The notes beneath the pieces were generated by a model. It saw only the letters and a list, made by a program, of their open reading frames with translations. It had not been told where the DNA came from and searched no databases. A stretch of DNA of 64,000 bases from Chiloscyllium plagiosum (Eukaryota): assembly GCF_004010195.1 (NCBI RefSeq), contig NC_057719.1, positions 30,189,853 to 30,253,852 on the forward strand. Reading direction: 5' to 3'. Positions 6,340 through 54,469 of the stretch are shown here, in pieces. Position 1 is the stretch's first letter; every line of letters starts with the position of its first letter. Made by a program: the position numbers and the translations under genes.

Positions 6340-7430
6340 TTTCTTTAACCTCTCCTTCTTCACCTGAATTGCTTCCAAAGAAATTGTCAGAATCACGTGT
6401 CAAAACAGCACACTTGATTGGCACCCTATTGACATCCTTCCTCTCCAACACTGACACCATCTCTCATCAGCTGAGGTTGCCCTTTCTTCTTAACTCTGCC
6501 CCTCTCCTGAGGCATGGTGATCCTTGTGTTAAACTCTCCAGCAGATACCTAATGAGAGAGCAGACTATGATCTTCTTGGACTTTCACCTGCCCCATTTGC
6601 AGGAAGCACAGAAGCAACCTGTCAAGACTCCTTTGATAGCACCTTCCAAATCTGTGACCTTGACCGCTTATTTTCAGGAAATCCTTCAACTCCCCATCAA
6701 ATATAAACTTGGACTTCCATCTATTATGGAAGAAATCAAAGCTGTCGTTAAACACATGATGAATGGAGGAGCTTCAGAATTGGATTGGATTCTAGCAGAG
6801 ACTTTCAAACTTGGAGGAGCAGAGCTCACCCATCATCTCCATCAACCGCAAATCTGGGAGAATGGCAGGGATTTCTTCTATCTCAGGGTTGCTGCCATCT
6901 TCACCATCTTCAAGAAATTATACAAAGGTTTTCTGCGAAAATGACAGGAAACTTCCTCCTGTCAATCGTCGGGAAGATCATTGCCCAAAACCTCACTGGA
7001 CACCTTCTTCTCCCAGTTGCTGAAGAAATCCTTCTGGACAGCCAGTATGACTTCCAACAATCTGTGGAACTGTTGGCATGATTTTCTCTGCTTGACAACT
7101 CCAACATCAATGCCAGGAACAGCACAACACATTCTACATGGCCTTCATTGATCTGAGGAGAAAGTGAAGACTGCAGGTACTGGAGATCAGTGTTGAGAAT
7201 GTGGTGCTGGTAAAGCACAGCAGATCAGGCAGCATCCAAGGAGCAGGAGAATCGATGTTTCAGGCGTAAGCCCTTCCTCAGGAATGAGGCCATTGATCTG
7301 ACCAAGGTTTTCGACTCAGTCAATCAAGAAGTGCAATGGAAGACCATATCAAAGGCCAGCTGTCCAGAAAAATCAATCCACATTCTCCATTTCCTCTATG
7401 ACAAGGTGTCAGTGGTGGTCCTTACTGACT
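6340..7430 (+). mobile_element. RTE-clade LINE fragment, decayed
   Basis: ORF 6369..6944 (EEIKAVVKHM..GASELDWILAETFKLGG) and an MAFIDLTK.FDSVN RT motif split by a PLE insertion at 7157-7290. Confidence 0.75.
7157..7290 (-). mobile_element. Penelope-like pLTR fragment with hammerhead motif
   Basis: 11-bp TSD CATTGATCTGA at 7146-7156 and 7291-7301; minus strand reads CTGAGGA-A-GGGC-TTAC-GCCT-GAAA-CATC. Confidence 0.8.
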
Positions 7431-8124
7431 GTTATAACTCCAAGTCCTCCATTCTCTGCAACATCCTGGTAAATCTCTTTTGAACCCTCTCCAACTCAAT
7501 AATATTCTTCCTATAACAGGATGATCGTAACTGGACACAGTACTTCAGAAGAGGCTTCACCAATGTCCTGCACAACCTCAACACTTCTCATCTTCTATAC
7601 TCAAAGGACTGAGCAATGAAGGCAAGCGTGCTAAACTCCTTTTGTAACCACCCTGTCTCTATATGATGTAAATGTCAAAGAATTATATACCTGAACTCCT
7701 AGGTCCCTCTGTTCTACAGCACTAATCAAGGCCCTCCTATTAATTGTATAAGTCCTGCCCGTGGTTGTTATGCTGAAATGCAATACATCGCTTTTATCCA
7801 AATTGAACTCCATCTGCCATTTTCAGCCATTGACTCATTTGATCAATGTAATCTTAGTAGACCACCTTCACCATCAGCTATGCCACCAATTTTGGTGTCA
7901 TTCATAGATTTACAAACGATACCTTCGATATTCTCATCCCAATCATTTATACAAATGAAAATCAATAGAGGCTCCAGAACCAATCCCTGCAGAACACCGC
8001 TGGTGACAGGCCTCTAGTCTGCAAAGCAGCCTTCTACCACCACCCTGTCTCCTGCAGTTAAACCAATTATCTATCCAATTGGCAAGTTCACCCTGAATCC
8101 CATGTGACCAAACTTTACTAATTA

Positions 8125-8301
8125 GTTTCAAAGTGTGGCACTGGAAAAGCACAGCAGGATAGGCAGCATCAGAGGAGCGGGAGAATCTATGTTTTGGGCA
8201 AAAACCCTTCCTTGGATGCTGCCTGACCTGCTGTGCTTTTCCAGTGTCACCCCCACCTTTTGACTCTGATCTCCAGCATTTGCAGTCCTCACTTTCTCTC
8301 A
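8125..8301. mobile_element. Inverted (head-to-head) Penelope-like pLTR pair
   Basis: 11-bp TSD TTTACTAATTA at 8114-8124 and 8302-8312; the two arms are reverse complements of the same repeat. Confidence 0.8.
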
Positions 8302-8517
8302 TTTACTAATTACTCTACCATGCAAATCTTGTCAAAGGCTTTACTAAAGTTTAAGTAAATAATATCTACTGCTCTGCCCTCATCAATCTTTTTGTAACTT
8401 CCTCAAAAGACACAATCAAGTTTGAGACATGATTTGCTTCACACAAAACCATGCTTACTATCCCTAATCAATTTTTGCCGATCTAAATGTTTATAAATCC
8501 TATCTTTAAGAATCACT

Positions 8518-9060
8518 TCGGTGAGGCCACTATTGGAATATTGCATGCAATTCAGGTCTCCTTCCTATCAGAAAGATGTTGTGAAACTTGAAAGGGTTCA
8601 GAAAAGATTTACAAGGATGTTGCCAGGATTGAAGGATTTGGGCTTTAGGGAGAGGTTGAATAGGCTAGAGCTGTTCTCCCTGGAGTGTCGGAGGCTGAGG
8701 GGTGACCTTATAGAGGTTTATAAAATCATGAGGAGGGGCATGGATAGGATAAATAAACAAAGTCTTTTTCCTGGGGTCGGGGCAGTTTAGGGTGAGAGGG
8801 GAAAGCTATAAAAGAGACCTCTGGCAACTTTTTCACACACAGGTTGGTGCGTGTATTGAATGAACTACCAGAGAAAGTAGTGGGGGCTAGTACAATTGCA
8901 ACTTTAAAATACATCTGGATGGTATATGAATAGGAAGGGTTAGGAGGGATATGGGCCTGGTACTGGCAAGTGGGACTAGATTGGGTTGGGATATCTGGTC
9001 GACATGGACGAGTTGGACCAAAGAGTCTGCTTCCGTGCTATACATCTCAATGACTTTATA
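8518..9060 (+). mobile_element. 5'-truncated CR1 LINE, 3' end
   Basis: ORF 8521..8790 [38 protein letters not shown], plus CR1 3' UTR. Confidence 0.9.
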
Positions 9061-51660: not shown

Positions 51661-52670
51661 GCCTAGTGTTGCTCCTGGCATGCCCTCCTGTGCTCTCCAT
51701 TGAACCAGATTTGATCCCTTGACTTGATGGTGGTGGTTGGGTGGGGGATATGTTGGACCATGAGGTTATAAATTGTGCTGGAGTGCAATTCTGTTGCTGT
51801 TGGCCCACAGTGCCTTATGGATGCATAGTCTTGAGTTGCTAGATCTGTTCGAAGTCTGTCCCATTTAGTACAATATCACGCAATATCAATATTCTTGATG
51901 TGAAGACTGGATTTATCTCCAAAAGGATTGTGTGGTGGTCATGTTTGCTGATGTTGTCATGCATAGATGCATCTGCAGCAGGCAGATTGATGAGCATTAT
52001 GTCAAGTATGGTTTTCCATATTGTTGGTTCCCTCACCACCTGTCACAAATCCAGTCTAACCACTGTCTTTTAAGACCTGACCAGCTCCACTAGTAGTGCT
52101 GCTGCTGAGCCACTGTTGATGGTGGACATTGAAATCCCATTTTGTGCCCATGCCACCTTCAGTGCTTCCTCCATGTGTTGCTCAACAATGAGGAGTACTG
52201 ATTCATCAGCCGAAAGAGGAAGGTCATCAGCTGGTGGCTTCCATGCCTATATTTAACTTGAAGCCATGGGACTTCATGTGATTTGGATTTAATGTTGAAG
52301 ACCCCCAGGGCAACACCCTTCTTACTGTACACCACTGTGCTGCCATGTCTGCTGGGTCTGTCGTGCAGTTGGGATAGGGCAAATCCAGGGATGGCAATGA
52401 TGGTATCTGGGACATTGTCTGTCTGTCTGTCAGTCACACTAAGGAATTGGAGATGCTGGTGTTGGACTATTGTGGACTAGGTCAGAAGTCATACAACACC
52501 AGGTTATAGTCCAACAGGTTTATGTGAAATCACAATCAGAATCGCAAATCGCCCTCTGAAAGCTTGTGATTTCAAATAAGCCTATCAATCATACTCAAGA
52601 AATCATACCTATGTCAGGTTGTTGCTTGAATAGTCTGTGAGACAGATCCTCACAGACTGTGAGACAGCCC

Positions 52671-52797
52671 TTCCTGAAGTAGGGCTTATGCCCGAAACAT
52701 CAATTCTCCTGCTCCTTGGATGCTGCCTGACCTGCTGCGCTTTTCCAGCAACACATTTTCAGCTCTGATCTCCAGCATCTGCAGTTCTCACTTTCTC
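52671..52797 (+). mobile_element. Penelope-like pLTR fragment, mutated hammerhead core
   Basis: 14-bp TSD CTGTGAGACAGATC at 52635-52648 and 52798-52811; core reads CTGAAGTA-GGGC-TTAT-GCCC-GAAA-CATC. Confidence 0.8.
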
Positions 52798-53497
52798 CTG
52801 TGAGACAGATCTCCCAATTTTGTCACTAGATCCCAGGTGTTACTAAGGAGAATTTTATCATGTTGCTATTTCTGCCATTGTCTTTTCAGGTGCTGAGGTT
52901 AATGTCAGGTGGTCTGTTTGGTTTCACTTCTTTGTTTAGACTACATAGTGATTGATGCAACTGAAAGGCTTGCTAGGCCAGTTCAGAGGGCATTGAGAGT
53001 CAACCACATTGCTGTGGCTCTGGAGTCACACACATGCCAAACCAGATGAAGATGGCAGATTTCCTACCTTGAAGAAAATCACTGTGCGTTTATTGGCAAA
53101 ATAGTAAGGTAAAAAGAAGTTATTTAGCCAGGAGTTTCAATAATGTGCAGCTTTATAGCATGACCTGAACAAAGAGCTACATTTTTAAAGTTATCTTTGT
53201 TATATTACATTTGTAGTGATGGGGTTAAAGCTGGTACTCTGTAAGAATACTTTGTACTATCTTCTTTATGACATCTTGTAATTGCAGTCGCATAAGCTAC
53301 TTCCCTTTTGTGTATTGATTTTATTGCTATTCTGGACTACTTCTCATGTTATTGTATCTTGGCATCTGTCTCAGTTGAAGTTCAGGTGATTATTTTTGCT
53401 GTTCAAATTCAGTTTTGAGCTTTGACTTCATGAAACTGAAATCTGAAATCTCCTATACGTGAAATCAAAGCTAAAGACTGATGCACAGAAACATTTG

Positions 53498-53737
53498 GAG
53501 AAAGTGAGGGCTGCAGATGCTGGAGATCACAGTTGAGAGTGTGATGCTGGATAAGCACAGCAGGTCAGGCAGCATCCGAAGAGTAGGAAAATCAATGTTT
53601 CAGGCATAAGCCCTTCATCAGGAATGAGGCAAAATGAGGCTCCTCATTCCTGATGAAGTGCTTATGCCCGAAACGTCGATTCTCCTACTTCTCGGATGCT
53701 GCCTAACCTGCTGTGCCTTTCCAGCACCCCACACTCA
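53498..53737. mobile_element. Inverted Penelope-like pLTR pair
   Basis: 15-bp TSD GCACAGAAAC(A/C)TTTG at 53483-53497 and 53738-53752; + strand core at 53650-53677 has a stem II mismatch. Confidence 0.85.
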
Positions 53738-54469
53738 GCACAGAAACCTTTGCCAATCCATAAATTACCACCAACCATAAATAGTAGATATAAGACTTGT
53801 GCTGTACTTTCATAATTTTTATGTTACTGTCATTTTCTTTAGATTGGAATTAATTTTGATAATGTGATCTATACCTACAGGGAGTAGATAGCCATTAGTA
53901 GAGAAAGTAAACCTTTTTTTATTTGGAAGCATTTACTTCATTTGTTCAATAATATTAAGCGTTGTGTGGTTCTTAAATTATCATATTCCAATTGAAATAA
54001 ATGTTTGAAAATATAAGCACCTGAAATTTCAACCCTATAAATTTTTCACAGCATGTATGCTTCATTTAGGAATGAATTGAGAATTAAAGCGAATGAATCT
54101 GATGAGATACAACTCACTATACTAATTATTTGCCAGCAGCCATTGAGTGGGAGGAAGGAAAGTGAGATTAACTGAAATTATAAATAAGTTCTAGATGAAC
54201 TTAATTCAGTTACCTAATTCTGATGTAACAATGTTCAAATTCTTGGGAGACAAATCGGTGTTAGTTTGAAACATCACCTCAGTTCAATTTCACTATTGGT
54301 TGTGAATATCAAGTATCTTTCTAGGAACTACTCAAACTAATTTAATATATTTTTTGTGGAATGAGCTTTGCAATACAATATTTTCAGGATTACTTTGGAA
54401 GATGATTATATTTAGAACACAGAGAAGCTTTTTTCACTGTTCTATGGTATGATGTATTTATATTTTCAG

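What the first reader, a model, noticed from the sequence alone, without database searches (positions are those of the whole stretch)
7146..53752. Dispersed family of Penelope-like pLTRs carrying a minimal type I hammerhead ribozyme
Seen: a repeat of about 130 bp recurs at 7157, 8125, 12393, 21969, 24864, 25838, 28049, 35889, 52671 and 53498, several with 11-16 bp AT-rich TSDs. Its conserved end reads CUGA(U/A/G)GA-A-GGGC-4 nt loop-GCCC-GAAA-CG-U(C/U)-GAUU. The loop varies (UUUU, UUAU, UUAC) while stem II is mostly kept. Established: CUGANGA...GAAA...UH is the hammerhead core, and Penelope-like retroelements are known to carry minimal type I hammerheads with a palindromic, nearly absent helix III that cleave as dimers. 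Inference: this is a young non-autonomous PLE system seeding self-cleaving RNA motifs through the introns of a conserved gene. No PLE RT/GIY-YIG ORF is in the window, so the PLE assignment rests on motif and architecture. The general phenomenon is known; I cannot tell whether this family is described.
Basis: partly seen in the sequence, partly recalled or inferred. Interest (0 to 1): 0.75.

Follow-up and report, generated by a model that had tools for sequence, protein, structure and literature searches.

The report
Shark Penelope ends with hammerhead ribozyme
These short repeats are the copied ends of a very abundant Penelope-type jumping gene of a shark genome, each starting with a known minimal self-cutting RNA motif; most copies are decayed and likely inert, but their regular mirror-image shape likely records how such elements insert.

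Summary
The repeat is real: 15 arms in 10 insertions, all inside the span of a shark EML5 gene. The same unit follows RT + GIY-YIG frames elsewhere in the genome, so it is the pLTR end of an endonuclease-positive Penelope-like element with a Neptune-type linker. The motif fits the published minimal type I hammerhead, and its helices covary across this genome's families. It is not one young family (median divergence 0.8-10%). It is not a separate non-autonomous lineage. It does not favour this gene: about 185 arms per Mb genome-wide, an estimated 660,000. Cores decay at the rate of their flanks (37 changes against 43 expected); only 3 of 15 window arms keep the core. More interesting is the shape: 67 of 81 sampled head-to-head pairs have one long and one short arm, both from one template, starting near a probable transcription start. 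This suggests twin priming on one RNA. The scan has noted this many times on other shark DNA (645 notes, at least 31 genomes). Verdict: new member of a known kind, modest mechanistic value.

The parts
7156..7289 (-). Single long arm (-7 to +126, counting hammerhead C3 as +1); decayed hammerhead at 7281; about 10-nt target duplication
8132..8298 (.). Head-to-head pair: short arm (-, 8132-8210) and long arm lacking the hammerhead (+, 8209-8298); 11-13-nt duplication
12393..12606 (.). Head-to-head pair: short arm (-, ends +91) and long arm (+, ends +126); 16-nt duplication; predicted 90-bp duplex as RNA
21967..22428 (.). Head-to-head pair (long arm -, 21967-22090; short arm +, 22354-22428) enclosing captured DNA; 14-nt duplication
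22091..22365 (-). 275-nt inverted copy of 20462-20736 (6 mismatches) lying between the two arms, with about 10 nt of microhomology at its right joint
20462..20736 (+). Likely local template of the captured stretch, 1.35 kb upstream
   Evidence: template role inferred
24866..24994 (+). Single long arm, 2.3% from its subfamily reference; intact minimal hammerhead 24868-24895, predicted cut after 24895; same strand as EML5
25837..26275 (-). Internally deleted partial tandem: probable 5' tip of the frame (about 26130-26275), deletion, upstream UTR, hammerhead at 25928 (GUU site), short end
28047..28144 (+). Single short arm; hammerhead at 28053 with G.U instead of G-C at 10.1-11.1
35889..36010 (.). 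Decayed head-to-head pair, both motifs broken, no duplication found
52671..52799 (+). Single long arm; core broken (A9 to U, palindrome decayed); duplication of 11 nt or more
53497..53736 (.). Head-to-head pair: long arm (-, 53497-53629) and short arm (+, 53642-53736); 15-nt duplication with one mismatch
12792..60648 (+). Host gene EML5: seven exon matches at about 12792-12860, 26466-26678, 28666-28803, 47107-47325, 54468-54608, 59568-59828, 60418-60648 (residues 153-553 of a catshark orthologue); no arm overlaps them

Best explanation
The repeats are short insertion products of an abundant endonuclease-positive Penelope-like retroelement, likely of the Neptune clade, each copying the stretch from a probable transcription start just before a minimal hammerhead motif to one of two inferred internal priming sites, and the dispersed copies are likely inert. 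Shown: the unit follows RT + GIY-YIG frames; 3' ends fall at a sharp +126 and a broad +84 to +98; 5' ends pile up at the hammerhead's 5' edge; pairs are long + short and share template variants; cores decay like flanks. Inferred: the protein nicks both target strands about 14 nt apart, primes one at +126 and the other near +90 on the same RNA, both cDNAs run towards the RNA 5' end and are joined there by short homologies (about 60% likely). Inferred: the hammerhead is under selection only in source elements, where it would cut as a dimer or with protein help (about 75%); no cleavage was shown here.
For: Four of 10 long-frame loci gave uninterrupted frames of 749-893 aa, each ending 0-180 nt before the unit in the same orientation; the two scanned match RVT_1 and GIY-YIG. 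DKG, YIDD, a CX4CXXC linker and cysteines inside GIY-YIG are visible (criteria in bioRxiv 2021.04.23.441226). In 160 evenly spaced 10-kb stretches: 286 arms, 185 per Mb. 67 of 81 pairs are long + short, 4 short + short, 2 long + long, 8 with a truncated arm; 54 of the 56 pairs with a duplication of 9 nt or more are long + short (P 4e-14 for 67 of 73). Arms agree at template polymorphisms (17/18, 18/21, 21/22, 18/19 against 0.49-0.67 expected) but not at a CpG decay site (14/21, 0.65 expected). The short arm reaches further 5' in 21 of 67 pairs and 5 long arms are tail only, which fold-back of one cDNA cannot give. 149 of 268 5' ends lie at -8 to +12, peak at -3, the A of TCATTC, with TTATCT 30-32 nt before it in all five references. 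Helix I, stem II, pair 3-8 and the palindrome covary across 8 of 9 family representatives. Core changes 37 against 43.4 base-matched (P 0.19). A lizard element extends both strands and starts at two internal sites in vitro (PMC11167929).
Against: No Rfam hammerhead match. Helix I is only 2 bp plus a U.U mismatch in the commonest subfamilies, and family E's representative forms one pair only; single-strand folding does not give the hammerhead fold. GIY-YIG scores 21.2-21.5 bits, just under Pfam's 22.6 cut-off. No complete frame from the first Met to the endonuclease was seen. The transcription start is untested: RNA reads of a related or the same organism showed no pile-up of molecule ends. Extra microhomology at the short end is weak (mean 2.0 against 0.1 nt, P 0.015, n 31, with alignment noise). 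142 arms had no partner within 600 nt, half long and half short, and only 20 of them showed a duplication. PMC3846280 explains the inverted shape otherwise, by self-priming on an antisense template.
Confidence: 0.75

Rival explanations
1. One reading: a young non-autonomous family spreads working self-cleaving motifs through introns, where they cut host pre-mRNA.
For: 61 of 286 sampled arms keep all core, palindrome and 10.1-11.1 bases; 26 of 39 and 11 of 14 full-span arms in the two A-type references. Two intact or nearly intact motifs (24868, 28053) lie on the EML5 strand 3.2 kb apart. The arms are present in RNA reads on both strands. Tandem arrays of the deleted form exist (L038).
Against: Neutral core decay; no enrichment in this gene (15 arms seen, about 12 expected); old subfamilies keep 3 of 31 and 1 of 33 motifs; paired arms form duplexes of -151 to -177 kcal/mol; published monomers do not cut, dimers cut weakly (PMC4209133) and the lizard motif cut only with its protein (PMC11167929); deletion breakpoints mostly differ.
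Confidence: 0.07
2. The pairs are fold-back products: one cDNA runs to the RNA 5' end, snaps back on the TTC-AG-GAA quasi-palindrome and copies itself up to about +90; or an antisense transcript self-primes.
For: Arms share template variants. Several junctions sit on the quasi-palindrome (about 6 of 21 shown). Self-priming on an antisense template is the published proposal (PMC3846280, discussion).
Against: In 21 of 67 pairs the short arm is longer at its 5' end than the long arm; in 5 the long arm is only the tail; several pairs enclose internal element sequence or local DNA. A 2-nt loop is a poor hairpin.
Confidence: 0.2
3. 5' ends pile up at the hammerhead because reverse transcriptase stalls or switches template at its stem II, not because the RNA starts there; or the ends record ribozyme cleavage.
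For: Ends are spread from -8 to +12 with a small peak at +22, right after stem II. 15 ends map at +29 to +34 against 3 at +23 to +28 and 6 at +35 to +40.
Against: A stall at stem II would stop at +20 or later, not at -3. Of the six starts at or next to +29, three are preceded by the CpG-decayed form of the motif, so the excess is largely an alignment artefact.
Confidence: 0.25

Closest known systems
[quoted passage not shown]
   Same: Core, unpaired base before stem II, G10.1-C11.1, palindromic 15.2-16.2, mostly single dispersed copies, opposite-strand pairs, a U3-A8 variant.
   Different: Stem II is 4 bp and helix I 2-4 bp in the main subfamilies, against 7-8 and 4-5 bp in Schistosoma. About 150,000 strict motifs estimated here against about 4,000 in coelacanth and 9,000 in Xenopus; descriptors differ. 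The passages read name no shark.
Neptune-clade EN+ Penelope-like elements (Craig et al. 2021, bioRxiv 2021.04.23.441226; passages read)
   Same: RT then C-terminal GIY-YIG, CX2-5CxxC linker, CCHH, pLTR with hammerhead, inverted 5'-truncated copy, 30-40-nt tail on one end.
   Different: Most sampled insertions here are ORF-less end pieces; no microsatellite targeting is seen in the 31 duplications listed. Neptune is not separated from Nematis by a tree here.
PAc, Poseidon element of Anolis (Frangieh et al. 2024, PMC11167929; parts 1-2 of 4 read)
   Same: Two internal RT start sites that bound the tail; both strands cut and extended; hammerhead upstream of the starts.
   Different: Other clade; its frame starts inside the hammerhead, whereas here the probable main Met lies about 35 nt after the long end. 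In vitro no strand difference in start site was seen; here each pair has one of each.
Adineta Pen2a/Pen3a insertions (Arkhipova et al. 2013, PMC3846280; passages and discussion read)
   Same: Inverted pLTR, tail on one end, duplication, palindromic junction, unrelated DNA captured between pLTRs.
   Different: Duplications 8-10 nt there, mostly 12-17 here; few copies there, hundreds of thousands here.
Animal non-LTR retrozymes (PMC7229834 and bioRxiv 2026.07.22.740005; passages read)
   Same: Small hammerhead-bearing, PLE-related units; tandem arrays of a deleted form exist at L038.
   Different: The window copies are single or head-to-head, not head-to-tail tandems, and carry the minimal, not the canonical, motif.

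Membership tests
EN+ Penelope-like element | Single frame with RT and C-terminal GIY-YIG attached to the repeat | tested here: met
   GIY-YIG just under the Pfam cut-off, motif visible
EN+ Penelope-like element | Partial tandem and inverted pLTRs, tail on one end, target duplication | tested here: met
EN+ Penelope-like element | RT groups with PLE RTs in a tree | not tested
   no reference PLE set was at hand
Neptune clade | CX2-5CxxC motif between RT and endonuclease, CCHH in the endonuclease | tested here: met
   criteria
Neptune clade | Distinct from Nematis, which shares the linker | tested here: inconclusive
   host range only: the vertebrate survey passage lists Neptune and Poseidon
Minimal type I hammerhead | Core CUGANGA and GAAA, bulged base, G10.1-C11.1, palindromic 15.2-16.2, UH | tested here: met
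Minimal type I hammerhead | Helix I and stem II covary between families | tested here: met
   8 of 9 representatives form 2-4 bp of helix I with three different first pairs; one representative each, picked by a core pattern
Minimal type I hammerhead | Self-cleavage as dimer or with protein | not testable with these tools
   needs an assay; RNA reads showed no end pile-up
Rfam hammerhead families | Match to a covariance model | tested here: not met
   none at E <= 1
Non-LTR retrozyme | Head-to-tail tandem units with complete motifs | tested here: not met
   window copies are single or inverted; a tandem exists elsewhere (L038)
Non-autonomous sublineage | Copies share one deletion junction | tested here: not met
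   11 deleted copies, breakpoints differ except L033/L034
Named Dfam or Repbase family | Match to a library consensus | not testable with these tools
   no such library here

The most novel reading that the evidence does not exclude
Shark genomes hold hundreds of thousands of natural integration products showing that Penelope-like elements insert by obligate twin priming on one RNA: one nick primes at a fixed site, the other about 35 nt upstream, both copies run to an initiator-defined RNA start at the hammerhead's 5' edge and are joined there, sometimes through nearby genomic DNA. This would explain the inverted pLTR and one-sided tail, and make this genome the densest known store of hammerhead motifs.
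Probability: 0.5. Interest if true: 0.6.

Novelty: new member of a known kind. Interest (0 to 1): 0.33.

Why it matters
The ribozyme and the element type are in print, so the finding as written is ordinary. What could matter is scale and regularity. How Penelope-like elements build their inverted ends and one-sided tail is open (self-priming on antisense RNA in PMC3846280, endonuclease resolution in the Craig preprint, two start sites in PMC11167929). The strict long + short rule, shared templates and tail-only arms give sharp predictions that the existing in vitro system can test. My search for twin priming with Penelope or pLTR listed 15 of 16 papers; none held both 'twin priming' and 'pLTR'. 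Searches listed no paper on shark PLE hammerheads; subscription journals and Repbase/Dfam were not searched.

Tried and rejected
Rfam scan: no hammerhead; four miRNA-like hits come from inverted repeats. Selection on dispersed cores: a raw contrast looked significant (2.8% against 5.1%, P 0.0002) but vanished after matching base type and removing template polymorphisms and CpG sites. Excess of 5' ends at the cut site: rejected as mostly CpG-decay trimming; the sample is small, so a minor signal is not excluded. One amplified deleted subfamily: rejected. L083 as a full-length element with both ends: rejected, its upstream pair is a separate insertion. The best genomic hits sharing the A9-to-U change reflect the query; that position differs in 2% of random arms. 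Sequencing runs: no RNA holder listed. Laid raw reads: X20 gave 0 reads; X19 gave 2223 and 3428 reads on both strands, 92-94% running on into unlike flanks, with no pile-up of ends; a fragmented polyA library is a weak test and its species identity with this genome is not shown. MAFFT misaligned the short motifs, so pairs were read by anchoring on the core. Local capture in other pairs: 2 of 16 long spacers match nearby DNA at 90-91%, too low to tell from common repeats. Look-up of earlier findings by sequence gave nothing. The random sample stopped at 160 stretches, all on large contigs.
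Full report
Observation. The repeat is present at all ten positions. Aligned to five subfamily references it resolves into 15 arms in 10 insertions, five of them head-to-head pairs. 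Each arm, read in the sense of the hammerhead, begins at or near the motif and runs on for 90 or 126 nt (C3 = +1). A minimal-hammerhead descriptor finds 5 motifs in the window, 3 with core and palindrome intact, 103 in 1.548 Mb of sampled genome and none in three shuffles. Rfam finds no hammerhead, which is unsurprising for a motif without helix III. Six insertions have clear target duplications of 10-16 nt; three have none.

Setting. The window lies in a 3.56-Gb genome. One exon is 98% identical to whale shark EML5, and seven + strand exon matches cover residues 153-553. No arm overlaps an exon. The three insertions before 12792 lie upstream of the first exon mapped here; exons for residues 1-152 were not found in the window, so they are probably intronic too.

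It is a Penelope-like element. Flanks of the best genomic copies held RT and GIY-YIG pieces. A protein search gave 94,203 first-look candidates, 150 scored. Of 10 loci picked for long frames, 4 gave uninterrupted frames of 749-893 aa, and each is followed within 180 nt by the same unit in the same orientation. Pfam gives RVT_1 above and GIY-YIG just below cut-off for the two scanned. The frames show DKG, YIDD, a CX4CXXC linker and cysteines within GIY-YIG, the marks of Neptune/Nematis in the Craig preprint (passages); vertebrates are reported to hold Neptune and Poseidon (passage). No tree was built. The window itself has no RT or endonuclease, but 25931-26275 is an internally deleted partial tandem with the UTR and the probable frame start.

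Abundance and age. In 160 evenly spaced 10-kb stretches there are 324 arms, 286 passing the filters (40 nt or more, at most 16% divergent): 185 per Mb, about 660,000 genome-wide. The window's 15 compare with about 12 expected. Frame remnants cover 11.8 kb of the first 969 kb sampled. Median divergence runs from 0.8% to 10% by subfamily. Strict motifs of all families number 65 in the sample, about 150,000 genome-wide, against 4,000-9,000 minimal motifs in coelacanth and Xenopus (PMC4209133) and 126,247 canonical ones in axolotl (PMC7229834, passage); descriptors differ, and only large contigs were sampled.

Is the ribozyme real, and do the copies work? Across nine family representatives the core is kept while helix I (first pair C-G, U-A or A-U), stem II, pair 3-8 and the palindrome (CG or GC) change in step; one representative fails helix I. 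This points to selection in source lineages, though the representatives were picked by a core pattern. Within dispersed copies the core is not protected: 37 changes against 43.4 expected for matched bases in 133 full-span arms; the raw contrast was an effect of template polymorphisms and base type. Only 61 of 286 arms keep the full motif. Paired arms fold into long duplexes. Published monomers do not cut, dimers cut weakly, and the lizard motif needed its protein and was not needed for insertion in vitro. RNA reads cover both strands, run into flanks and show no end pile-up. So the copies are most likely passengers.

How the insertions form. 3' ends are sharp at +126 and broad at +84 to +98: the known 30-40-nt tail. 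Of 81 pairs, 67 are long + short; of 56 with a duplication of 9 nt or more, 54 (the duplication finder fired at 4 of 300 random sites). Duplications centre on 14-15 nt. Arms of a pair agree at template polymorphisms but decay separately at a CpG, so they came from one template and were not homogenised later. The short arm reaches further 5' in 21 of 67 pairs, the long arm in 7, and 5 long arms are tail only, which argues against simple fold-back. One junction recurs in different subfamilies, so junctions form anew. 5' ends pile at -8 to +12 (149 of 268), peak -3, an initiator-like A (consensus recalled) with TTATCT 30-32 nt upstream in most UTR-bearing copies. I infer twin priming on one RNA that starts at -3, with strand displacement and joining by short homologies; at 21967-22428 the join ran through 275 nt of DNA 1.35 kb away. 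Against: 142 arms had no near partner, the short-end microhomology signal is weak, the start site is unmapped, and antisense self-priming is the published proposal. An apparent excess of ends at the cut site is mostly CpG artefact.

Relation to what is known. Element type, motif, inverted pLTR, tail, duplication and capture of unrelated DNA are all in print. I found no paper on shark PLE hammerheads or on twin priming for pLTRs in five searches (listings seen, seven papers opened in part, supplements not seen and they may list shark motifs). I noted the twin-priming idea before looking at earlier scan notes, which hold 645 findings in at least 31 genomes on this theme, several with the same reading; they are not independent support. 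One of them sees ends clustering at the cut site, which my sample does not bear out.

Verdict. New member of a known kind. Identity as PLE pLTR ends with a minimal hammerhead: about 97%. Dispersed copies inert: about 90%. Twin priming on one RNA: about 60%. Interest 0.33; 0.6 if the mechanism holds.

Noticed in passing
window 42081-42167, 52471-52590, 56890-56976: A second Penelope-type end family, also in inverted arrangements; its intact motif elsewhere has a 5-bp stem II and an AGCU palindrome (11 hits of one form). Window copies are decayed.
   Followed up: partly
window 58248-58326, 60819-60849, 41677-41762: Older, more distant arms of related families, below the thresholds used.
   Followed up: no
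window 42589-42685: Near-perfect 97-nt inverted repeat that draws miRNA-precursor hits below Rfam's gathering scores; unrelated to the pLTR, perhaps a small DNA element.
   Followed up: no
L154:1372-1416, L117:4140-4184, L244:7009-7053: An older family with the U3-A8 core covariation reported from Schistosoma.
   Followed up: partly
L038:1406-3021: Six same-strand units at mostly about 250-280 nt spacing, each with the hammerhead region: a retrozyme-like tandem.
   Followed up: no
window 52640-52670: Left flank of the 52671 arm repeats part of the target duplication with an inverted stretch between, suggesting target-DNA snap-back before joining.
   Followed up: no
window 1-1040, 3088-4254, 19037-20376, 32327-33899, 44713-45344, 50707-51643: Many decayed LINE-type RT fragments (CR1-like by recall) make up the other large repeat families of the window.
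   Followed up: no
L050:3-668: A frame resembling a retroviral envelope transmembrane region (by recall) next to a pLTR copy.
   Followed up: no
window 51095-51198: Run of 104 N inside a LINE fragment.
   Followed up: no
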